Source: an uncultured Candidatus Saccharibacteria bacterium
Lineage (GTDB): Bacteria > Patescibacteriota > Minisyncoccia > Phycocordibacterales > UBA6899
Direction: 5' to 3'
NCBI GenBank assembly: GCA_964386905.1
Contig: CAYLUP010000001.1
Span: forward strand, 19,905 to 83,904
DNA: 64,000 nt
This document shows positions 27,306-35,916 of the stretch, piece after piece. The position numbers and the translations under genes are program-made. The number at the start of each line of letters is the position of its first letter. Position 1 is the stretch's first letter. A model generated the notes under the pieces. The model did no database searches and was not told where the DNA came from. It saw only the letters and a list, made by a program, of their open reading frames with translations.

Positions 27306-30005
27306 ATGGATAATATACACACGAGCTATTACAAGATGGATATTGCAGATCTAGAAGCCAAGTTGGAAACATCAGCATCTGAGGGTATTTCGACAAAAGA
27401 AGCGCTACATCGCCTTGAAATATTTGGTGAAAACGCCTTGTCTGAAGAAAAGAGAAAAACTATTATTGACAAAATTGTAGATGAGTTGCGCTCTCCGCTC
27501 ACATTCGTTCTCCTTCTTGCTGGAATCGTCACTTTATTTTTGGGTGAATATGTTGATGCAACTGTCATTTTTATTGCTTTGTCGATCAATATTGCTATTA
27601 ACTTGTATCAAGAGGGTCGTGCATCTTCTGCATTTAAGGAACTGAAAAGTGCCCAAGCAAAGACGACGCTCGTTATTCGTGGTGGATTTACACACGAGAT
27701 TCCTACTGAACAACTTGTTCCTGGAGATTGTATTATTCTTCAATCCGGATCAACTGTTCCAGCAGATGCACGTGTTGTGTCAGCCGATAATGCTGAAGTG
27801 AACGAATCTGTTCTTACGGGAGAATGGCTTCCTGTTGCAAAAACGTCCGCATTGTTGTCTGGGACACTGTCGCGCCTGGAACAGAAAAATATGTTGTACA
27901 TGGGGACGTTGGTTACGACAGGTTCTATACGCGCAATTGTGGTTGAGACAGGGGATAGGACCGTTTTTGGTGGTATCGGCATGGCTTTAAAAAAAGCAGA
28001 ATCACCACTAACACCAATTCAACAAAATATTAAGAAAGTAGCGAAGTTTCTTTCATATGTCATTGTTGTCGCTCTAAGCATTGTTCTTCTTTTGGGCATT
28101 TACCGAGGTATTCCTCTTACGGAAACTGTTCTTATCGCAATCGCAATTGCCGTTGCTGCAATCCCAGAAGGACTGCCTGCGGTTGTGTCTGTCATGCTTG
28201 CCATGAGCATGCAACGTGTTTTGAAACGTGGTGGACTAGTGAGAAATCTTGTTGCGGCGGAAACACTAGGTTCGACAACTGTAATCATGACTGACAAGAC
28301 TGGGACACTCACCGAAGGGATTATGAAGCTTGATCGTGTTGTGGCGTTTAAAAATTTAGAAGAGGACTTAGGTGCGTACAACAACGTGCGAGCACATGAA
28401 GAACATGGAGATGAACGAGATGTGCTTACATTCGCGTATCTTGCATCAAATTCTGTGGTTGAAACTTCTAAAATTCCAGGCATTGAACCAAAATTTCATG
28501 GGAAACCCGTGGATATTGCTATTGGTCGAGCAGTATATGCGTCTGGCATTTCTGTGGACGAGCTTGCAAAAGATTTTCCTCGCGTGACGTCGCAGCCGTT
28601 TATGTCTGAAATGCGAATGGCCTTTTCATTAAATGCTGTTCGCGGGCTCGAGCAAAAACGACTTTTTGTGCTTGGTGCACCTGAAGAACTTTTGTCGCGT
28701 GCAAAATCATATTATGTGTTTGGGAAGGCTGAGGCATTGACTGATGCTGCCCGGGCATCATTTTTGAAAAAGCTTGAGGAGGGGGCACGTTTAGGTATGC
28801 GAGTAGTAAGTGTGGGGTATTGCGACACGGGTACAGATACTCTTCCATCAAAAAAGGAAGAATATATACAGCAATTTTTTGAACAAGGGAATTTCGTTTT
28901 CTGCGGCCTTGTCCTTCTGCATGATCCAATTCGCTCTGACGTTCGAGCTTCTATCGCAGCGGCGCGTGGTGCGGGTGTGCGTGTGTTGATGGCGACAGGA
29001 GATAACCCAGAAACAGCACGTTCGATTGCACAGAAAGCTGGCATTGTAGAAGATGCAGAGGCGCCGTATCTTCTAGGGATTGACGTAGATTCGCTCAGTG
29101 ATGAAGACTTGTTAGAGAAGATACAAACTGTTTCTATTTACGCACGAATGCTTCCAGAACAAAAACAGCGTATTGCAACTCTACTCGGAGGAAAGGGTGA
29201 AGTTGTGGCCATGACGGGGGACGGTGTAAACGATGCGCCATCATTACGTACGGCTTCCATTGGCATTGCTCTTGGAAGTGGTACTGATGTTGCGAAGGAG
29301 GCGTCTGATCTTGTTCTTGTGGATAATAGCTTTACTGTCATTGTAAATGCTATTGAGGAGGGGAGAAGGGCAATTGATAATATTCGAAAAAGTATCGTAT
29401 ATTTGATATCTACGTCATTCTCAGAGATAGTTGTTGTTATTGTCGCGTTGGGCATGGGCCTTCCTCTTCCACTCCTCCCGACACAAATTATATGGACGAA
29501 TATGCTCACGGAAGGACTAATGAATTTTGCTTTTGCATTTGAACATAAAGAACAAGGCATAATGAAACGAGATCCGCGAGTCCATGGGTCACAGTTTATG
29601 CTTTCAAAGCAGTTCATTGGCTTTATTTTGACAGTTGGACTGCTTACAGGGATACTTCTCATGTGGTTGTTCTTGTGGATGCAAAATCTTGCTTTGTCGG
29701 AGGATGGAATGCGGACAGTAATGTTTGTTGCGCTGACACTATTTGCTACACTCATGTCATTTTCACTTCGAGATCTGCGTTCGCCAATCTGGAAAACTGT
29801 ACCATGGTCAAATGGGTATTTGCTCCTTTCAATCTTGTCTGTTGTTGGTGGCTTAAGCATCGCATTATTTGTTCCACAAGTCTCTCGTTTGCTTGCACTT
29901 GAGGCGCATGTGCTTCCACGTTTTGTCCCATACATTTTCGCACTTACGATATTGCTTTTTGTTGGTGTTGAGCTCGCAAAGAAATTTATATTAAAACATC
30001 GTTAA
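27306..30005 (+). CDS. P-type ATPase, P2A-type Ca2+/cation-transporting.
   Basis: Motifs TGES-like LTGEW, DKTGTLT phosphorylation site and MTGDGVNDAPSL hinge. About 10 TM segments. Start moved to MDNIHTSYYKMDIADLEAKL. Confidence 0.9.
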   Translation: MDNIHTSYYKMDIADLEAKLETSASEGISTKEALHRLEIFGENALSEEKRKTIIDKIVDELRSPLTFVLLLAGIVTLFLGEYVDATVIFIALSINIAINLYQEGRASSAFKELKSAQAKTTLVIRGGFTHEIPTEQLVPGDCIILQSGSTVPADARVVSADNAEVNESVLTGEWLPVAKTSALLSGTLSRLEQKNMLYMGTLVTTGSIRAIVVETGDRTVFGGIGMALKKAESPLTPIQQNIKKVAKFLSYVIVVALSIVLLLGIYRGIPLTETVLIAIAIAVAAIPEGLPAVVSVMLAMSMQRVLKRGGLVRNLVAAETLGSTTVIMTDKTGTLTEGIMKLDRVVAFKNLEEDLGAYNNVRAHEEHGDERDVLTFAYLASNSVVETSKIPGIEPKFHGKPVDIAIGRAVYASGISVDELAKDFPRVTSQPFMSEMRMAFSLNAVRGLEQKRLFVLGAPEELLSRAKSYYVFGKAEALTDAARASFLKKLEEGARLGMRVVSVGYCDTGTDTLPSKKEEYIQQFFEQGNFVFCGLVLLHDPIRSDVRASIAAARGAGVRVLMATGDNPETARSIAQKAGIVEDAEAPYLLGIDVDSLSDEDLLEKIQTVSIYARMLPEQKQRIATLLGGKGEVVAMTGDGVNDAPSLRTASIGIALGSGTDVAKEASDLVLVDNSFTVIVNAIEEGRRAIDNIRKSIVYLISTSFSEIVVVIVALGMGLPLPLLPTQIIWTNMLTEGLMNFAFAFEHKEQGIMKRDPRVHGSQFMLSKQFIGFILTVGLLTGILLMWLFLWMQNLALSEDGMRTVMFVALTLFATLMSFSLRDLRSPIWKTVPWSNGYLLLSILSVVGGLSIALFVPQVSRLLALEAHVLPRFVPYIFALTILLFVGVELAKKFILKHR

Positions 30006-30008
30006 ATT

Positions 30009-31130
30009 ATGGAATATTTTATTGCTGTTGGGCTCTTTACGCTGATTGTACTCGTCATATTCCTGCTTATACAAAGCAGAAATCCTAGAGATTCAGTTTC
30101 CAAGGAGCTTGAACATTTTGCTTCTGTTCGTGAAGCTGATCGAGCAGCGCTTACATTTCTGCAGCAACAACTTGCTGAGCTAACGAAGCAGATTGATACA
30201 CGTCTCTCAGAGTCACGTCGTGATGTGAGTGATGCGGTGCATCGACAATTTAGTGAATCGCAGAAATTGCTTTCAGAAATTAATGCACAAATGTCAGAGC
30301 GTTTGCTTGCAGTGACACGTGAACAAACAAAAGCAAATGAGGCAGTACAACATTTTGCTCAGATTGGGGATCAACTTGCAAATCTGGAGCGCGTGCTGAC
30401 ACATCAAAAGCAGCGAGGAAACTGGGGAGAGGCTTCACTCGCGCTCATTCTTCAAAATATTTTGCCACCAGATGCATATAAGCTACAGTACGCTGTTGGC
30501 GAAAAAGATGTTGTTGATGCCGCAATTATGACAAAGGATGGTTTTATTCCTGTGGATGCGAAGTTTTCGCTCGATAACTATCAGCGCCTCGCGCAAGAAG
30601 AGAATCAGGATAAGCGCGAGGATCTTGAAAAAGAATTTCGCAATGATCTCAAGAAACGTATCGATGAAACTGCAAAATACATCAATCAAAAAGTAGGGTC
30701 GCTTCCGTTTGCTTTTATGTTTATTCCTGCCGAAGCAATTTACTATGACCTTCTCGTGAATGAAGTTGGTCGCGTGAAAAGTAACACACGAAGCCTGATT
30801 GATTATGCATATCACGAAAAGAAAGTCATTATCGTTTCCCCGACGACCTTTGCAGCATACTTACAGTCTGTCCTCTATGGATTTCGTGCGTTCCAGATCG
30901 AACAAGCGGCTCAGGACATTGGCAAGCGAGTTGAGGAGCTCGGGAAGCACATGAAAGCATATGAGGAGTACTATGCGAAGCTCGGTGCTTCACTGTCGAC
31001 GACTGTGAATCACTATAATGTTGGATATAAAGAACTGGGAAAAATAGATAAGGACGTGCGACGTATTGCAGGTGCAGCTCCGGGCATTGAACCTGTTGTG
31101 CTCGATCGGCCAAATATGGAAGCAGAATAA
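30009..31130 (+). CDS. rmuC: DNA recombination protein RmuC.
   Basis: N-terminal TM. Long coiled coil. RmuC nuclease-like C-terminus (FAFMFIPAEAIYYD...VIIVSPTTFAAYLQ). Confidence 0.82.
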   Translation: MEYFIAVGLFTLIVLVIFLLIQSRNPRDSVSKELEHFASVREADRAALTFLQQQLAELTKQIDTRLSESRRDVSDAVHRQFSESQKLLSEINAQMSERLLAVTREQTKANEAVQHFAQIGDQLANLERVLTHQKQRGNWGEASLALILQNILPPDAYKLQYAVGEKDVVDAAIMTKDGFIPVDAKFSLDNYQRLAQEENQDKREDLEKEFRNDLKKRIDETAKYINQKVGSLPFAFMFIPAEAIYYDLLVNEVGRVKSNTRSLIDYAYHEKKVIIVSPTTFAAYLQSVLYGFRAFQIEQAAQDIGKRVEELGKHMKAYEEYYAKLGASLSTTVNHYNVGYKELGKIDKDVRRIAGAAPGIEPVVLDRPNMEAE

Positions 31131-31156
31131 AAAAGCCCCACCGAGGTGGGGTTTTG
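31130..31156. terminator. Bidirectional terminator between rmuC and the GC-rich ORF.
   Basis: aaaaaGCCCCACCgaggTGGGGTtttg. Confidence 0.7.
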
Positions 31157-31158
31157 TG

Positions 31159-31548
31159 CTAGACGCCGACGAGGTCGGGTTCCGCACTGAATTGATTGAC
31201 TTCGAACTGGTCGGCGAGGAGCAGCCTCTTCGCCCTGATCGAGATCATGTCCGCTTTCTCTTTGATGGCGCTGACGTCGAGGGGGTCGATAGAGCTGAGT
31301 TCGTTCTTTTCGATCTCCTTCGTCGCCTGTGCGAGCACTTGTTCGATGATGTCGGAGAACTGCTGGTTGGACAGGGTGATTCCCCGGCGCCTCTCGTGCC
31401 TGCTGATGTGGTGAAGGGCTGTTGCGAGGACGTCGGTGCACCCGTCGCGGATGCCGTCTTTGGTCCTTTCGAAGCCCTCCACGGGGAGGGGGACGTGCTT
31501 GCTGACCGCTTCAGCGATCAAGGTCTTTCGCGTATTGTGGGAGAGCAT
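31159..31548 (-). CDS. Hypothetical protein (129 aa) encoded in a locally GC-rich segment. Candidate horizontally acquired gene.
   Basis: The ORF has coding-like composition. The opposite-strand ORF (31066..31560) reads like an antisense artefact. Local GC is visibly far above the flanks. Confidence 0.5.
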   Translation of the reverse strand: MLSHNTRKTLIAEAVSKHVPLPVEGFERTKDGIRDGCTDVLATALHHISRHERRRGITLSNQQFSDIIEQVLAQATKEIEKNELSSIDPLDVSAIKEKADMISIRAKRLLLADQFEVNQFSAEPDLVGV

Positions 31549-31661
31549 AGAGCCTCTTGAAAAAGCAGCACGGCTGCTTTGGGTCCAGTGTTGTTTATAC
31601 CATATGAATAACGTATGTCAATAAAATTCAAAGAGAGATGAAATGTGATATGATGCATGAT

Positions 31662-32273
31662 ATGGATCCCATACATCGACTGGAATATTTCTTTACGCTC
31701 TTTCCTGGAGTTGGGTCGCGCCAGGCGCGGCGTTTTGTCCATTATCTGCTCAAGCAGTCACCACAGCATCTCTCGGAGCTCTCTCGTCTGATTGCTCAAC
31801 TTCCAGACCAGGTTCGGGAGTGCGTCGAATGCCATCGCTATTTTCCGAAGAAGGGTCCGCATACAGAAAAATGTCCTGTCTGCGCTGATCCACTTCGTGA
31901 TCCGACGCAACTGCTGATTGTTGAAAAAGACGCAGATCTTGAGGCGATTGAACGCGCACATACATATACAGGATACTATTATGTTCTTGGAGGAACATTA
32001 GGGATCCTTGAAAAAAATCCAGAAAAGGTTATTCGACTTTCTGCATTAAAACGAAGAGTAGAATCTATGAAGGCGCTCCACGAAGTCATTATTGCGACTG
32101 CTGTGACTCCTGAAAGTGAACATACAGGCGATTTCGTTCGTCTCGCACTTCGAGATATGTGTGTTGAGCGCAATATTCTGATTACTCGTCTTGGTCGAGG
32201 TGTCTCGACAGGGAGTGAAATTGAGTATGCAGATGCTGACACATTGCGGAATGCATTGCTGGGAAGGAAGTAG
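31662..32273 (+). CDS. recR: Recombination protein RecR.
   Basis: C4 zinc finger (CVECHRYFPKKGPHTEKCPVC) plus a Toprim domain (LLIVEKDADLEAIE...YYYVLGG). Start moved to MDPIHRLEYF. Confidence 0.9.
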   Translation: MDPIHRLEYFFTLFPGVGSRQARRFVHYLLKQSPQHLSELSRLIAQLPDQVRECVECHRYFPKKGPHTEKCPVCADPLRDPTQLLIVEKDADLEAIERAHTYTGYYYVLGGTLGILEKNPEKVIRLSALKRRVESMKALHEVIIATAVTPESEHTGDFVRLALRDMCVERNILITRLGRGVSTGSEIEYADADTLRNALLGRK

Positions 32274-32342
32274 GAGGGAGCCGGGATGAGAATGTCTGCA
32301 TGTCACCAAATAAAATGCCGCACCATATTGGTGCGGATGAAA

Positions 32343-32669
32343 CTATGTGGTGATGAGTACAACGCAGAGATGCGCGGCTGCTTCCGCAAGATCATTTTCT
32401 TCGGCGAATGCAGTTGTCTTGCTTGCGCGTGTACCTTCCTTGGTGGTACGTCGGGCTTTTTGAAGCTTCTCTGCTAATGTGTTTGCGGAAAAATGCAAAA
32501 GCACATCGTCGGCTTCAGCAGGAATTGCTGCTGAAAGAATACATGCGCATTTGATTCTGCACGCATGAGTGATGTGTGGTGAATTGAATTGCTCTAAAAC
32601 TACTTTGTAGGCGACATGAAATCGTTCTTCAATGGTGGCAGTGTCCATAGAGGCCTTCTGTGCTTTCAT
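32343..32669 (-). CDS. Hypothetical small protein (108 aa). Weak call.
   Basis: ORF downstream of the dnaB terminator on the same strand. No SD and no recognisable domain. Confidence 0.25.
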   Translation of the reverse strand: MKAQKASMDTATIEERFHVAYKVVLEQFNSPHITHACRIKCACILSAAIPAEADDVLLHFSANTLAEKLQKARRTTKEGTRASKTTAFAEENDLAEAAAHLCVVLITT

Positions 32670-32689
32670 AGTTATACAACTCTATAATT

Positions 32690-32717
32690 CGTTGTCAATC
32701 AAAAACACGGGTTCACC
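32690..32717. terminator. Bidirectional terminator after dnaB.
   Basis: aaaaACACGGGTtcaCCCGTGTtttt. Confidence 0.75.
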
Positions 32718-32724
32718 CGTGTTT

Positions 32725-34170
32725 TTAAAATGCATCAAATTCATCATCCCCAGAACCACGAACTGCATGGTAATCACCGTGTTTTTCGTCGATTTCTCTG
32801 AAACTTGTGTGCTTTCCATCGAAGTGAAGCTTGACGACACCTGTCGCACCATTTCTGTGCTTTTCGATAAGAATTTCAGCAATTTGATTACGTTCACCAT
32901 TCTCATCTTGTTCACGATGGATAAACATAACAACGTCTGCATCTTGCTCGATTGAGCCAGAGTCTCGAAGGTCTGAAAGTTTGGGCTTACCACCGCGTTG
33001 TTCAACAGCACGAGAGAGCTGTGAGAGGGCAATAACAGGAACATTGAGGTCTTTTGCAAGCCCCTTGAGAGAGCGTGAGATTTCTGTGACTTGTTGCACC
33101 ATGGAATCCGTCTGTCGCATAGGGGACATGAGCTGGAGATAATCAACAACGAGAAGTTTGACCCCATACTCGCTTACCATGCGTCTTGCGGTCGCACGCA
33201 TGTTCATGATGTTAATACCCGCCTGGTCGTTGATATAAATTGGTGCTTTCGAGAGACGATCGATACCCTCACGGAGATACTCAAACTCGTTTTCGCGCGA
33301 AAGTTTTCCTGTGCGGAGTCTCCATGAGTCAATACGTGATTCTGCAGAAACCATACGATCAATTATTTGCTGAGAGGACATTTCAAGCGAAAAGAGTCCG
33401 ACAGGAATATTGTGTTGCACTGCAGCCCCACGAATCATGTCGAGTGCAAACGATGTTTTACCCATGGAAGGGCGTGCCGCAAGAATGATAAGGTCGGAGG
33501 GTTGAAGTCCAGAGAGCATGCGGTCAATTGACGGAAAGCCAGACGGAACACCACGAAGACCATCTCCTTGTTCACTGATTTTCTCAAAGCGCTCCCATGC
33601 CTGCTGTGTTCCTTCCTTCATGTTGAGGATAGATTGTCCAGGTGTCAGCGCGGTAATTTTGAAGATCGTTGATTCTGCTTCGTCAAGGATTTCCTCTAAA
33701 AGTCGTTCTTCTTGGAATCCAAGCTCTGAGACATGTTCAGCCCCATTAATCAGCTGGCGGAGAACATGTTTTTTGTGAATGATTTCTGCGTAGTGGCGAG
33801 CATTTGCAGATGACGGTACGGCATTGGTAAGTTCAGTGAGGTATGTGTGACCTCCAATTGCATCAAACTGTCCGCGTTCCGAAAGCTTTGCAGACATCGT
33901 GAGGAGATCAATCGGTTCTCGTCGTGCATGAAGATCGAGCATTGCCTGGTAAATAACGCGGTGCTTTTCAGCGTAGAACGCTTCTGGAAGAATAATATCT
34001 GAAACTTCATAGAGCGTGTCTGCGCGAAGCATGAGGGCTCCGAGGAGTGCGCGCTCTGAATCGAGGTGTTGCGGTGGGACACGAAGCGAACTTAAGACTG
34101 GTGATCGCTGGTTTGAATAATCGCGTTTGAGCGAACGGCGCTCATACTGTCCTGTAGGCACTTGCTGCAT
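32725..34170 (-). CDS. dnaB: Replicative DNA helicase DnaB.
   Basis: N-terminal domain (ERALLGALMLRADTLYEV). Walker A GARPSMGKTSFALD. Walker B LLVVDYLQLM. No intein. Start moved to MQQVPTGQ. Confidence 0.93.
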   Translation of the reverse strand: MQQVPTGQYERRSLKRDYSNQRSPVLSSLRVPPQHLDSERALLGALMLRADTLYEVSDIILPEAFYAEKHRVIYQAMLDLHARREPIDLLTMSAKLSERGQFDAIGGHTYLTELTNAVPSSANARHYAEIIHKKHVLRQLINGAEHVSELGFQEERLLEEILDEAESTIFKITALTPGQSILNMKEGTQQAWERFEKISEQGDGLRGVPSGFPSIDRMLSGLQPSDLIILAARPSMGKTSFALDMIRGAAVQHNIPVGLFSLEMSSQQIIDRMVSAESRIDSWRLRTGKLSRENEFEYLREGIDRLSKAPIYINDQAGINIMNMRATARRMVSEYGVKLLVVDYLQLMSPMRQTDSMVQQVTEISRSLKGLAKDLNVPVIALSQLSRAVEQRGGKPKLSDLRDSGSIEQDADVVMFIHREQDENGERNQIAEILIEKHRNGATGVVKLHFDGKHTSFREIDEKHGDYHAVRGSGDDEFDAF

Positions 34171-34382
34171 ATAAAGTATCTTGGCATATGACACGACCCC
34201 AATCAATGTGTATAACTGTGGATAGTCCACACGTATTTAAGCCCTATATTTCAGTTTTCCACAGTATTGACGAATGGAAGATTGTGTACGGACTTCCACA
34301 TGTCGGTATTGTGTGTTCGGTAATTCATCCTGATGAATATCCACACCACTTGAGTACGTGCGTATGTGGTACAATCGACCCC

Positions 34383-35273
34383 ATGGCAAAGAATACCGTG
34401 CTCATTGCAAAGACAGGGAAGACAACGTATCTTCCGCTTACAGATAAAGAGGAAGATATCGCGCTATTGCTCAGAAAAGTAAAAGCTCCACAATTGAAGG
34501 AGGGTTCTACGAAGTCATTTGACGCGAAGGCGGGCAGTCTCGTTGGGGAAGAGTGGTTCGGAATTGATCTTATTGGTGATGATTTACAGATTATTGCTCC
34601 GTATGTCGATGCTGCGTGTACAAAAATTGACCCCGAGCGTATTGCAAGTGTGGATATGTCTGCAATCAAAGCATTGGCTATTGTTGAAACAACGGGATTG
34701 CCTAGAGAGACTACTATCCATGTCATAAAGACGTCATCTACGCAACGATACGACAGAAAAACTCTTATTGAGTTCGGCGTTCACGGTGTAACGATTGAGG
34801 AACGAACCCATGGTGTGGAGGTTGGTGGAGTGCTGCATGCATATGTTCATCATGGAAAATTGTATTTTCAGAATTTTAATACAGCATCCTCACTCTTCTT
34901 CGGAATTGACAAGTTCTTTCGTGAAGCGACCGACGAAGAGGTGAATGAATTTTGTGGTCTACCACTCTTTCTCCTTGGCGAAGAGTTTGATGCAAATCTG
35001 ATTGGAAAGCGACAGCGGAAGCAAATTGCTCTTTCGCTTCCGTTGATGCCAGACCTACAAAATGATCACATTCGTAAGCAATTGACTGAGTATGCAAAGG
35101 ATTATCTCCCTTTACAAGAAGGTGAACGTATTATTCAAGGAGAGCATTTTGCTTTAAATTCTCCTTCAGATCTTGCATATATTTTTCATATTCTGTATGG
35201 AGACTATTTTACGAACGTAATTACTGGTGAAAAGATGATTGCAAAGAGAAGTGAGAAGTTGGTGGGAAAGTAG
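34383..35273 (+). CDS. Hypothetical protein.
   Basis: Coding-like ORF divergent from dnaB. Start moved to MAKNTVLIAK to leave a 212 bp divergent promoter region. No domain recognised. Confidence 0.5.
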   Translation: MAKNTVLIAKTGKTTYLPLTDKEEDIALLLRKVKAPQLKEGSTKSFDAKAGSLVGEEWFGIDLIGDDLQIIAPYVDAACTKIDPERIASVDMSAIKALAIVETTGLPRETTIHVIKTSSTQRYDRKTLIEFGVHGVTIEERTHGVEVGGVLHAYVHHGKLYFQNFNTASSLFFGIDKFFREATDEEVNEFCGLPLFLLGEEFDANLIGKRQRKQIALSLPLMPDLQNDHIRKQLTEYAKDYLPLQEGERIIQGEHFALNSPSDLAYIFHILYGDYFTNVITGEKMIAKRSEKLVGK

Positions 35274-35319
35274 AGGGGTGTAGTGATTAGTGAACAGTGA
35301 TAAGTGAATAGAAGAATGC

Positions 35320-35535
35320 AGTGGTTGGTGGGTAGTGGATAGGAAGAAGAGAATAGAGGATAGACAATGGTAAGAAAAGTTTCTCGTTGCAAGTTCCAAG
35401 TTGGACACAAATGCATTGTCATTGCGAAGACGACCTGTACCCGGGTCGTCTGTGGCAATCCAGGACTGCATTTTGTATTACCTTGAACTAAAACTATTTG
35501 GCAATCTAGGACTGTATCTGTCTATCTCTGTAGCT
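35320..35535 (+). repeat. Copy 1 of a repeated structured element, immediately upstream of rplU. A purine-rich GTGGNNN heptamer and GAGAATAGAGGATAGACA block forms its left end. A conserved 57 nt core lies in the middle. An inverted pyrimidine-rich copy of the end motif (CTGTCTATCTCT) forms its right end.
   Basis: About 85-90% identity to 40643..40790. Core AATGCATTGTCATTGCGAAGACGACCTGTACCCGGGTCGTCTGTGGCAATCCAGGAC with internal hairpin GACGACC/GGTCGTC. TTGGCAATCYAGGACT occurs twice. Confidence 0.6.
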
Positions 35536-35610
35536 CAAAACTCATTTCTCATGACTCATATTCCCGTACTTTCTTGCTTTTTTCGCAAAATACGGTATAC
35601 TAACCCCACT

Positions 35611-35916
35611 ATGACATTCGCAGTTATTACCACGGGTGGCAAGCAATATAAGGTTGCAGTAGGTGATGTTCTCAGTGTTGAGAAGCTCGACGCAGAGGGT
35701 TCAGTTACGTTTGACAAGGTATTGCTTGTGGACGACGGTTCTTCAACGAAAGTTGGTACACCGTTTGTCGCAGGTGCACAGGTTACCGCAGACATCGTTG
35801 AGCACGGCAAGGGTCCTAAGATCTATGTCGTTCGCTACATGCCAAAGAGCCGCTGGGCAAAGAAAAACGGTCACCGACAGCCATTTACAAAGATCAAAAT
35901 CACTGGAATCAAATAA
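35611..35916 (+). CDS. rplU: 50S ribosomal protein L21.
   Basis: MTFAVITTGGKQYKVAVGDVL... Candidate promoter TTGCTT-N16-TATACT lies 8-40 nt upstream of the ATG. Confidence 0.9.
   Translation: MTFAVITTGGKQYKVAVGDVLSVEKLDAEGSVTFDKVLLVDDGSSTKVGTPFVAGAQVTADIVEHGKGPKIYVVRYMPKSRWAKKNGHRQPFTKIKITGIK

What the first reader, a model, noticed from the sequence alone, without database searches (positions are those of the whole stretch)
31145..31560. Sharply GC-enriched 400 bp island encoding a 129-aa ORF between rmuC and recR
The segment between the rmuC terminator and recR is visibly much more GC-rich than the surrounding sequence. It contains runs such as gacgccgacgaggtcgggttccgc and gaggacgtcggtgcacccgtcgcggatgcc. 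Both strands give long ORFs. The minus-strand 129-aa ORF has protein-like composition (ITLSNQQFSDIIEQVLAQATKEIEK). The plus-strand ORF looks like an antisense artefact. A compositional island of single-gene size suggests recent horizontal acquisition. It could be a small DNA-binding or phage-derived protein.
Basis: seen in the sequence. Interest (0 to 1): 0.5.

Follow-up and report, generated by a model that had tools for sequence, protein, structure and literature searches.

The report
GC-rich small orphan gene beside recR
A real 129-amino-acid gene of unknown function sits on the reverse strand between rmuC and recR of a Patescibacteria genome; its GC-richness lies almost entirely in third codon positions and recurs in the equivalent gene of related genomes, so it is a long-standing peculiarity of this gene and not a fresh foreign insertion.

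Summary
Window 31131-31530 is the most GC-rich 400 bp of the 64 kb (0.59 vs 0.438 +/- 0.031, z = 5). The excess sits in codon position 3 of the minus-strand ORF 31159-31548 (GC3 0.82 vs 0.37 +/- 0.04 in 42 long ORFs).

The minus ORF is a real gene:
- orthologues occupy the same slot in two other metagenomic genomes (53-58% aa identity);
- conservation by codon position is 2 > 1 > 3, and dN/dS is 0.1-0.2;
- it has its own conserved promoter, 5' hairpin, Shine-Dalgarno site and terminator.

The plus ORF is its antisense shadow, yet public gene calls annotate that strand.

"Recent horizontal acquisition" is not supported. The gene predates the split of lineages whose synonymous sites are saturated. 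The small gene divergent from recR is GC3-rich in all six AT-rich relatives sampled (0.58-0.86 vs 0.26-0.37). ORF129 links weakly (hhalign P 1.7e-4) to a clade-specific family of small Cys-motif helical proteins around recR.

No phage, plasmid, Pfam, PADLOC, Rfam or structural match exists, so function is unknown. Why GC3 persists is unexplained; my best guess is gene-specific selection on synonymous sites. Moderate-to-low interest.

The parts
31159..31548 (-). Protein-coding gene, 129 aa (14.4 kDa, pI 5.9, predicted all-helical, no TM segment). ATG at 31548-31546, TAG at 31161-31159. Carrier of the GC island (GC3 0.82).
   Evidence: ORF list. Codon-position GC. Orthologues L070:58-450(-) and L081:1-378(-) with 53-58% aa identity, position identity 0.60/0.75/0.45, dN/dS 0.10-0.22. 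AF2 four helices, pLDDT 60. Protein properties.
31553..31558 (-). Shine-Dalgarno AAGAGG, 4 nt before the ATG. The GAGG core is invariant in four genomes.
31562..31580 (-). 5'-UTR hairpin AAAGCAGC-CGU-GCUGCUUU followed by UUC, a few nt from the inferred transcript start. Terminator-like in both directions. Likely an mRNA 5' stabiliser or attenuator (inferred).
   Evidence: Predicted in the MFE and centroid folds. Conserved in L070, L081 and L077, with a compensatory GCAGC/GCTGC -> GCGGC/GCCGC change in L077. Coordinates.
31594..31602 (-). Extended -10 element TGGTATAAA of the gene's own promoter.
   Evidence: Read from the sequence. Conserved in L070 and L081. Missed by the scan, which requires T at the last position.
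31616..31621 (-). -35 element TTGACA, 16-nt spacer to the -10 hexamer. Invariant in four genomes. Lies back-to-back with the recR promoter.
31132..31155 (.). Bidirectional intrinsic terminator hairpin (A-run, GCCCCACC/GGTGGGG stem, T-run) shared by rmuC (+) and the 129-aa gene (-).
   Evidence: Conserved in L070.
31066..31560 (+). 164-aa plus-strand ORF: antisense shadow of the real gene, not a gene.
   Evidence: It is the codon-aligned reverse frame (GC1 0.745, GC2 0.382, GC3 0.60). It is open only because the sense gene lacks TTA/CTA/TCA codons, and it is closed in L081 by one TCA. Its least conserved position would be codon position 1. It overlaps the rmuC 3' end and terminator.
32343..32669 (-). 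108-aa ORF between recR and dnaB: member of the clade-specific small Cys-motif protein family, probable distant paralogue of the 129-aa gene, with normal GC3 (0.41).
   Evidence: A4 profile (no window sequences) gives E 0.0017 among 5967 ORFs. hhalign P 2e-4. GC3.
31627..31654 (+). recR promoter (TTCAAA-16-TGnTATGAT), divergent from and 5 bp away from the -35 of the 129-aa gene. The recR ATG is at 31662.

Best explanation
SHOWN. The island is the coding sequence of a genuine, independently transcribed gene on the minus strand (129 aa, soluble, predicted helical). It has its own near-consensus promoter, a conserved 5' hairpin, a Shine-Dalgarno site and a terminator shared with rmuC. It is vertically shared with at least two related Paceibacteria-like genomes, evolves 5-15 times faster than RecR at the protein level, and is still under purifying selection. 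Its GC excess is a synonymous-site (third-position, mainly C-ending) bias. The same bias recurs in the small gene divergent from recR in every AT-rich relative sampled.

INFERRED. (1) The gene is a divergent member of a clade-specific family of small Cys-motif helical proteins that sit in one to three copies around recR at a lineage-specific rearranged rmuC-recR junction. It is therefore native to the clade and not a recent import. (2) The GC3 excess has outlasted complete randomisation of synonymous sites in the flanks and stops sharply at the CDS ends, so it is being maintained by a gene-specific force acting on synonymous sites. The most likely force is selection at the mRNA/translation level (transcript stability or efficient decoding of NNC codons in a strongly expressed small protein). 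It is not a fading foreign signature. (3) The biochemical role is unknown. The only positional hint is the divergent, back-to-back promoter arrangement with recR, which would suit a small regulatory or protein-binding factor.
For: Coding on the minus strand: codon-position identity 0.60/0.75/0.45, dN/dS 0.10-0.22, three orthologues. Transcription unit: TTGACA-16-TGGTATAAA, hairpin with a compensatory change, GAGG, terminator. Same arrangement in independent assemblies: L076 (5 SNPs in 5.6 kb), L070, L081. Age: recR synonymous codon identity between the window and L070/L081 equals the permutation null (f about 0), as does the ORF (f 0.05-0.07). L070-L081 retain signal in both (0.29 and 0.17, p 0.009). 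The window branch is not shorter than the L081 branch. Persistence, GC3 of the recR-divergent ORF vs recR: 0.82/0.37, 0.66/0.29, 0.58/0.355, 0.86/0.255, 0.66/0.338, 0.62/0.333, 0.78/0.53, 0.74/0.52. Sharp CDS-limited boundaries. Family link: A3 vs A6 hhalign P 1.7e-4, probability 49%, Cys in register. The A6 profile ranks ORF129 (E 0.02) and its L070 orthologue (E 0.13) first among about 6000 non-training ORFs. The L080 fragment bridges both (P 0.002 each). No donor: nothing in 1.8 billion representatives except repeat artefacts, and nothing in phage, plasmid or viral sets.
Against: The family link is below conventional significance (HHsuite probability 49%; A3 vs A4 alone gives 1.3%). On the L070 and L081 branches, polarised synonymous changes are GC>AT 18 vs AT>GC 4. 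That looks like decay of a GC-rich ancestral state, so maintenance is weak or absent there. Parsimony with a GC-rich outgroup at saturated sites is biased in that direction. rplU, a bona fide highly expressed gene, has only GC3 0.485 and C/(C+T) 0.47, so ordinary translational selection cannot by itself give 0.82 and 0.92. AGG (5 of 9 Arg) and CCC (4 of 4 Pro) are odd choices for translational optimisation. mRNA folding is not exceptional (z -1.26). The saturation argument rests on a simple resampling model and on small site numbers (27 four-fold sites). Several relatives' ORFs are only fragments of 21-69 codons.
Confidence: 0.5

Rival explanations
1. Horizontal acquisition from a GC-rich donor. 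The gene entered the common ancestor of the window, L070 and L081 lineages and is still ameliorating, faster in L070/L081 than in the window genome.
For: Extreme codon-usage mismatch. The family is restricted to a narrow clade, with no homologue elsewhere. It sits at a rearranged junction that holds rplU in more distant relatives. GC3 is graded 0.82 > 0.66 > 0.58, with GC>AT 18:4 on the L070/L081 branches.
Against: Flank synonymous sites are saturated between the window and L070/L081 (f about 0; four-fold f 0.1-0.2), and branch lengths are symmetric. Under that divergence, neutral decay should leave at most about 0.3 of GC excess even from a 100% GC start, yet four-fold sites of the window ORF are 93% GC. 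The non-orthologous or barely homologous slot genes of L077, L079, L080, L086 and L001 are GC3-rich too. There is no donor, mobility gene, tRNA or repeat signature. There is a weak homology link to native neighbours.
Confidence: 0.2
2. The rmuC-recR slot is a recombination hot spot. The gene is repeatedly replaced by diverged alleles from a GC-richer gene pool (cassette-like replacement between the two flanking hairpins), and/or GC-biased gene conversion raises its GC.
For: Protein divergence is far above the flanks (53% vs 90-98% aa identity). Slot content varies between relatives: one to three small ORFs, a 180-aa ORF, a 538-aa pilin/Kelch protein. A-run hairpins lie at both ends. Synonymous similarity of the window ORF to L070/L081 is indistinguishable from zero. 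There is uneven divergence of neighbours: dnaB keeps synonymous signal (f 0.17) while recR does not.
Against: L070-L081 show co-inheritance of the ORF and recR (f 0.17 vs 0.29). The 5' UTR and first codons are conserved across four genomes. The GC excess stops exactly at the CDS ends and is concentrated at position 3, which conversion tracts would not respect. No GC-rich pool member was found in any collection.
Confidence: 0.2
3. The island is not a protein gene on the minus strand. It is either a structured non-coding RNA (GC-rich RNAs stand out in AT-rich genomes) or the plus-strand 164-aa ORF, as public gene calls annotate.
For: GC-rich ~400-bp islands in AT-rich genomes are often RNase P RNA, tmRNA or similar (general knowledge). 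The plus ORF is longer and was the one called in the Logan contig L076. Plus-strand RNA folds slightly better than shuffles (z -2.19).
Against: No Rfam family even at E up to 10, and no tmRNA. There is strong 3-base periodicity and 2 > 1 > 3 conservation in the minus frame, with dN/dS 0.1-0.2. The plus frame is interrupted in L081 and overlaps rmuC and its terminator. The z-score of the plus strand includes two terminator hairpins.
Confidence: 0.03
4. Assembly chimera or contamination: a short GC-rich fragment from another organism mis-joined into the contig.
For: Abrupt compositional change over about 400 bp.
Against: The same junctions occur in an independent assembly of the same population (L076, 5 SNPs in 5573 bp) and in two diverged relatives from other samples. 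The boundaries coincide with functional gene signals.
Confidence: 0.01

Closest known systems
Compositionally atypical, horizontally acquired genes undergoing amelioration (Lawrence and Ochman model; own knowledge)
   Same: Single-gene-sized island with codon usage far from the host's. The family is taxonomically restricted and sits at a rearranged junction.
   Different: The gene is present at the same site in diverged relatives. The anomaly has survived complete synonymous saturation of the flanks and recurs in the positional counterparts of other lineages. There is no donor, no mobility genes, no tRNA or att-like repeats. Bacterial ORFans are usually AT-rich, whereas this one is GC-rich.
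Clade-specific family of small Cys-motif helical proteins around recR
   Same: Same slot and orientation (divergent from recR), similar size (103-124 aa), helical, an invariant Cys that aligns with Cys37, fast evolution, GC3 above the host's in most members. The window itself holds one member (32343-32669).
   Different: Sequence similarity of ORF129 to the family is only marginal (hhalign P 1.7e-4, hmmsearch E 0.02). ORF129 has a distinct conserved C-terminal helix (IRAKRLLxADQFEV).
YbaB/EbfC, the small nucleoid-associated protein usually encoded next to recR (dnaX-ybaB-recR; own knowledge)
   Same: Small protein gene immediately adjacent to recR.
   Different: No match to the YbaB Pfam family at E up to 1. 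It is divergently transcribed and not co-transcribed. It is predicted all-helical with no beta-sheet core.
Antisense 'shadow' ORFs of GC3-rich genes (own knowledge)
   Same: The 164-aa plus-strand ORF is the codon-aligned reverse frame, open because TTA/CTA/TCA are absent from the sense gene.
   Different: Nothing. This fully explains the plus ORF.

Membership tests
Recently acquired genomic island (HGT) | Composition or codon usage atypical for the host | tested here: met
   GC3 0.82 vs 0.37 +/- 0.04. logP per codon is about 5 sd below the other genes.
Recently acquired genomic island (HGT) | Absent from the same site in close relatives | tested here: not met
   Orthologues are present in the same slot in L070 and L081 (RecR 90% identical). 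Positional counterparts occur in L077, L079, L080, L086, L001 and L084.
Recently acquired genomic island (HGT) | Mobility signature (integrase or transposase, tRNA target, flanking direct repeats) | tested here: not met
   The nearest tRNAs are at 21.7 and 41.2 kb. Only chance-level short repeats were found. The neighbours are rmuC and recR.
Recently acquired genomic island (HGT) | Identifiable homologue in a donor lineage or mobile element | tested here: not met
   No credible hit in the 5.8 billion-cluster or 1.84 billion-representative searches, or in viral contigs, metagenome contigs, phage or plasmid records.
Structured RNA families (RNase P RNA, tmRNA, SRP RNA, 6S and all of Rfam 15) | Covariance-model match at or near the gathering score | tested here: not met
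   The best hit in 30000-33000 scores 24 bits against a gathering score of 45-60. Nothing in the island reaches threshold. ARAGORN finds no tmRNA.
Ribonuclease-inhibitor-type leucine-rich repeat (Pfam LRR_6) | Match to the Pfam model, reproducible in orthologues | tested here: not met
   The phmmer hit to the LRR protein P0002 (E 1.7e-5) is summed over repeats. Pfam lists no LRR for ORF129 or the L070 orthologue. The orthologue's BLASTP match drops to E 0.005 at 28% identity.
Clade-specific small Cys-motif protein family (A4/A6) | Significant profile match | tested here: inconclusive
   A3 vs A4 gives P 0.039 (probability 1.3%). A3 vs A6 gives P 1.7e-4 (probability 49%). A6 hmmsearch gives E 0.02 and 0.13, the top non-training hits of 5967 ORFs.
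Clade-specific small Cys-motif protein family (A4/A6) | Same genomic position and orientation (minus strand, divergent from recR) and the invariant Cys in register | tested here: met
YbaB/EbfC nucleoid-associated protein | Match to Pfam YbaB_DNA_bd, co-transcription with recR | tested here: not met
   No such Pfam hit at E up to 1. The gene is on the opposite strand to recR.
Phage-derived protein / anti-phage defence component | Match to PHROGs, PADLOC, phage genomes or viral contigs | tested here: not met
   PHROG best E 0.03 (small terminase, partial). PADLOC none. tblastn against phages best E 0.6. Viral contigs none.
Helix-turn-helix or other DNA-binding domain | Domain-model or fold match | tested here: inconclusive
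   Only a sub-threshold Rep3_C winged-helix hit (E 0.1, 13 bits vs cutoff 21). The AF2 model has pLDDT 60 and no Foldseek match with E below 1.

The most novel reading that the evidence does not exclude
A small, fast-evolving, clade-specific protein gene next to recR whose synonymous sites are actively held at an extreme GC/C-ending composition in otherwise AT-rich Patescibacteria genomes, over times long enough to randomise synonymous sites elsewhere. That would mean strong selection on the nucleic acid itself (mRNA stability or decoding, a second function of the transcript or of the GC-rich DNA segment) in organisms where selection on codon usage is thought to be weak.
Probability: 0.3. Interest if true: 0.55.

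Novelty: new member of a known kind. Interest (0 to 1): 0.3.

Why it matters
Practically, the real gene is missing from protein databases because automatic gene calling picks the longer antisense ORF. Any GC3-rich gene in an AT-rich genome is exposed to this error, and it made the protein look as if it had no self-match. Conceptually, a compositional island of single-gene size is normally read as recent horizontal transfer. Here comparative data show that reading is unsafe: the anomaly is old, tied to one gene slot and shared across lineages. If the GC3 excess is maintained by selection, this locus would be a compact natural test case for selection on synonymous sites or mRNA properties in streamlined CPR bacteria. 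It would also point to a recR-associated small protein family worth characterising. If it is slow amelioration or allele replacement, the locus is ordinary.

Tried and rejected
- Structured-RNA hypothesis: Rfam at gathering threshold and at E up to 10, and ARAGORN, all negative. Folding z-scores are unremarkable.
- Domain and family searches (Pfam, PHROGs, NCBIfam, PADLOC) for both strands: nothing significant.
- Word-index protein search with the single sequence and with the 2-sequence profile: nothing.
- Exhaustive phmmer: two hits, both repeat proteins with scores summed over repeats (tandem-repeat P0001, LRR P0002). Rejected as spurious.
- PDB sequence search with the A2 and A6 profiles: only E above 0.004, unrelated hits.
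- AF2 single-sequence model (pLDDT 60) and Foldseek against PDB: no match with E below 1.
- Direct BLASTP of ORF129 against the three small L001 ORFs: nothing.
- Exact-protein look-ups for ORF129, RecR (211-aa version) and RmuC: not on record.
- Viral and metagenome scans with the ORF: nothing. Phage and plasmid tblastn/blastn: nothing.
- GC1/GC2 calibration, to ask whether the amino-acid composition is host-like or donor-like: not discriminating.
- My first f statistic over all same-aa sites overestimated residual similarity in 2-fold codon families. I replaced it with a within-amino-acid permutation test.
- A first recR comparison used the wrong frame because of an indel upstream of the true start. 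Corrected.
- Literature search for GC3 anomalies in Patescibacteria: no relevant paper.
- Translational selection as the sole cause: weakened by rplU.
- MazF-type ACA avoidance: rejected by eye, since several ACA occur in the mRNA (sequence).

Full report
OBSERVATION.
In 400-bp windows the 64-kb window averages GC 0.438 (sd 0.031). The maximum, 0.5925, is at 31131-31530 (z = 5.0), and the runner-up is 0.525. The island coincides with the minus-strand ORF 31159-31548. GC drops to 0.28-0.38 in the spacer before recR and to host level beyond the rmuC terminator.

The excess is a third-codon-position effect in the minus frame. GC1/2/3 = 0.585/0.362/0.823, against GC3 0.373 +/- 0.037 (max 0.469) in 42 long ORFs. 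Third-position C/(C+T) is 0.92 against 0.36 +/- 0.10, while G/(G+A) is only 0.67 against 0.44. ATC is used 11/11, GAC 9/9, CAC 5/5, TTC 4/4, CCC 4/4 and AGG 5/9. The log-likelihood per codon under host usage is about 5 sd below the other 70 genes.

WHICH STRAND, AND IS IT A GENE?
The plus ORF (31066-31560) is the codon-aligned reverse frame of the minus ORF (GC1 0.745, GC2 0.382, GC3 0.60). It overlaps the rmuC 3' end and terminator.

Related loci settle the matter. A metagenome contig with a 90%-identical RecR (L070) carries a 130-aa minus-strand orthologue in the same slot. A JGI contig (L081) carries a third, of 126 aa and cut at the contig end. Amino-acid identity is 53-58% to the window and 71% between L070 and L081. 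Identity by codon position is 0.60/0.75/0.45 in the minus frame, and dN/dS is 0.10-0.22. In L081 one TCA codon closes the antisense frame. No Rfam family matches even at E up to 10, there is no tmRNA, and RNA folding is unremarkable.

So the minus ORF is a protein-coding gene under purifying selection, and the plus ORF is an antisense shadow. An independent assembly of the same population (L076, 5 SNPs in 5573 bp, one of them S85R in this gene) has the same structure. There the automatic gene call is the plus-strand 134-aa ORF. That explains why the true protein has no self-match in protein collections.

ANATOMY (minus strand).
- -35 TTGACA at 31621-31616.
- 16-nt spacer.
- Extended -10 TGGTATAAA at 31602-31594.
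- An 8-bp hairpin AAAGCAGC-CGU-GCUGCUUU at 31580-31562, a few nucleotides from the inferred 5' end.
- SD AAGAGG at 31558-31553.
- ATG at 31548 and TAG at 31161-31159.
- The bidirectional terminator hairpin 31132-31155, shared with rmuC.

The -35, the -10, the GAGG and the hairpin are conserved in L070, L081 and L077. L077 shows a compensatory GCAGC/GCTGC to GCGGC/GCCGC change. The promoter lies back-to-back with the recR promoter TTCAAA-16-TGnTATGAT at 31627-31654. The product is 14.4 kDa with pI 5.9, has no hydrophobic segment, and is predicted as four helices at low confidence.

CONTEXT AND RELATIVES.
The host is a Patescibacteria (Paceibacteria/Nomurabacteria-like) genome. In more distant relatives the order is rmuC(+) rplU(+) recR(-) dnaB(-). 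In the sub-clade containing the window, recR is inverted, rplU lies elsewhere (35611-35916 here), and the rmuC-recR gap holds one or more unannotated minus-strand ORFs:
- three tandem paralogues in L001 and L084;
- a 180-aa ORF in L083 and L085;
- fragments in L077, L079, L080 and L086.

The L001/L084/L086 proteins form a family with an invariant Cys-Ala motif (A4). The window's 108-aa ORF between recR and dnaB (32343-32669) joins it (A4 profile E 0.0017 among 5967 ORFs; hhalign P 2e-4).

ORF129 and its orthologues (A3) link only weakly. A3 vs A4 gives P 0.039. The L080 fragment matches both profiles at P 0.002 with the Cys in register. A3 vs the enlarged A6 gives P 1.7e-4, probability 49%. 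The A6 profile, which has no ORF129-type training sequence, ranks ORF129 (E 0.02) and its L070 orthologue (E 0.13) first among all other ORFs. I rate common ancestry at roughly 60%.

IS IT RECENT HGT?
No homologue exists outside this clade. The only hits in the exhaustive search are repeat proteins whose scores are summed over repeats, and they are not reproduced by the orthologue or by Pfam. Viral, metagenome, phage and plasmid searches are empty. There is no mobility signature.

Against recency: between the window and L070/L081, synonymous codon choice at conserved residues is at the permutation null for recR (f about 0) and for the ORF (f 0.05-0.07). The closer pair L070-L081 keeps signal in both (0.29 and 0.17, p 0.009), so the ORF has been co-inherited with its flanks at least since that split. 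A relative-rate check shows the window branch is not short. After that much synonymous turnover, a neutral foreign signature should have decayed. With four-fold-site f of 0.1-0.2 in the flanks, at most about 0.3 of GC excess would remain even from a 100% GC start. Yet the window ORF has 93% GC at four-fold sites.

Moreover, the recR-divergent ORF is GC3-rich in every AT-rich relative:

| Locus | ORF GC3 | recR (or flank) GC3 |
|---|---|---|
| L070 | 0.66 | 0.29 |
| L081 | 0.58 | 0.355 |
| L077 (21 codons) | 0.86 | 0.255 |
| L079 | 0.66 | 0.338 |
| L080 | 0.62 | 0.333 |
| L086 | 0.78 | 0.53 |
| L001 | 0.74 | 0.52 |

Across eleven lineages the slot gene keeps GC3 0.57-0.86 while host GC3 ranges 0.26-0.57.

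WHAT MAINTAINS IT?
This is unresolved.
- Ordinary translational selection is insufficient. rplU has GC3 0.485 and C/(C+T) 0.47, and AGG and CCC are odd optimal codons.
- Biased gene conversion or DNA-level selection would not stop at the CDS ends or concentrate at position 3.
- Polarised changes on the L070/L081 branches run GC>AT 18:4. This suggests decay there, although the polarisation is biased by the GC-rich outgroup.
- Repeated allele replacement from an unseen GC-rich pool cannot be excluded for the window lineage, because its synonymous similarity to the others is nil.

I therefore favour, at about 50% for the package and lower for the specific force, a native fast-evolving gene with gene-specific selection on synonymous sites. 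That selection would be for mRNA stability or decoding, which fits the near-consensus promoter, the 5' terminal hairpin and the good SD. Ancient HGT with slow amelioration (0.2) and hot-spot replacement or conversion (0.2) are the live rivals. The RNA-gene, plus-strand-gene and chimera readings are essentially refuted.

FUNCTION.
Nothing can be assigned. There is no domain, defence-system, phage or structural match. Conserved features are H4, T6-R7, PLP-x-x-GFER (20-28), C37, H47, E52-R53, QFS-x-II-x-QV (63-71), D-x-LDVSA-x-KE (88-97) and IRAKRLL-x-ADQFEV (104-117). The divergent, promoter-sharing arrangement with recR is the only, weak hint of a regulatory or recR-linked role. This is inference, not evidence.

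VERDICT.
The 'recent HGT, phage-derived or DNA-binding' interpretation is not supported. It is an orphan small-protein gene with an unusually persistent synonymous GC bias. The interest is moderate-to-low, mainly for molecular evolution and for annotation practice.

Noticed in passing
L076:456-860 (+) = window about 31156-31560: In the public Logan assembly of the same organism, the automatic gene call at this locus is the plus-strand antisense ORF (134 aa). The real minus-strand protein is therefore absent from protein databases, and searches return no self-hit.
   Followed up: yes
window 31627-31664: The recR -10 box (TATGAT, 31649-31654) ends 7 nt before ATG 31662 (MDPIH...). L070 has a 1-nt indel between 31638 and 31661, so the 211-aa ORF start at 31638 is wrong. 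recR is probably leaderless or has a minimal leader.
   Followed up: partly
window 30009-35916; L027-L069: Lineage-specific rearrangement. Distant relatives have rmuC(+) rplU(+) recR(-) dnaB(-). In the window, L001 and their kin, recR is inverted and rplU sits about 4 kb away (35611-35916), after dnaB and a 361-aa gene.
   Followed up: partly
window 32343-32669 (-): The unannotated 108-aa ORF between recR and dnaB belongs to a clade-specific family of small proteins with an invariant Cys-Ala motif (A4 profile E 0.0017). Unlike ORF129 it has normal GC3 (0.41).
   Followed up: partly
L001:7149-8334 and L084:644-1803: Three tandem minus-strand paralogues (109, 122/123, 114/124 aa) of that family fill the rmuC-recR gap in two relatives. 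They are mildly to clearly GC3-enriched relative to their hosts (+0.06 to +0.22).
   Followed up: partly
L085:1745-3361 (-): In one relative the slot also holds a 538-aa protein with a pilin-like N_methyl signal and Kelch beta-propeller repeats. The gap is a variable region.
   Followed up: no
window 32725-34170 vs L081:1162-2607: Uneven divergence of adjacent genes between the window and L081. DnaB is 98% identical and keeps synonymous similarity (f 0.17, z 4.9), whereas RecR is 90% identical with none. This may mark a recombination boundary between recR and dnaB, or very different constraints.
   Followed up: no
window 31296: Single SNP in the gene between the window and L076 (T/G on the plus strand). 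It is nonsynonymous (S85R) and lies in the least conserved loop of the protein.
   Followed up: partly
P0001, P0002: The only hits of the exhaustive phmmer search are a 55-aa tandem-repeat protein and a eukaryote-like RI-type LRR protein. Their E-values (about 1e-5) come from summing many weak repeat matches. This is a caution for orphan queries.
   Followed up: yes
window 31130-31141 and 31560-31571: Both hairpins flanking the gene are preceded by the same A-run motif (AAAAAGCCCCAC / AAAAAGCAGCAC). This may simply reflect two bidirectional terminator-like elements, or it may mark cassette boundaries.
   Followed up: no
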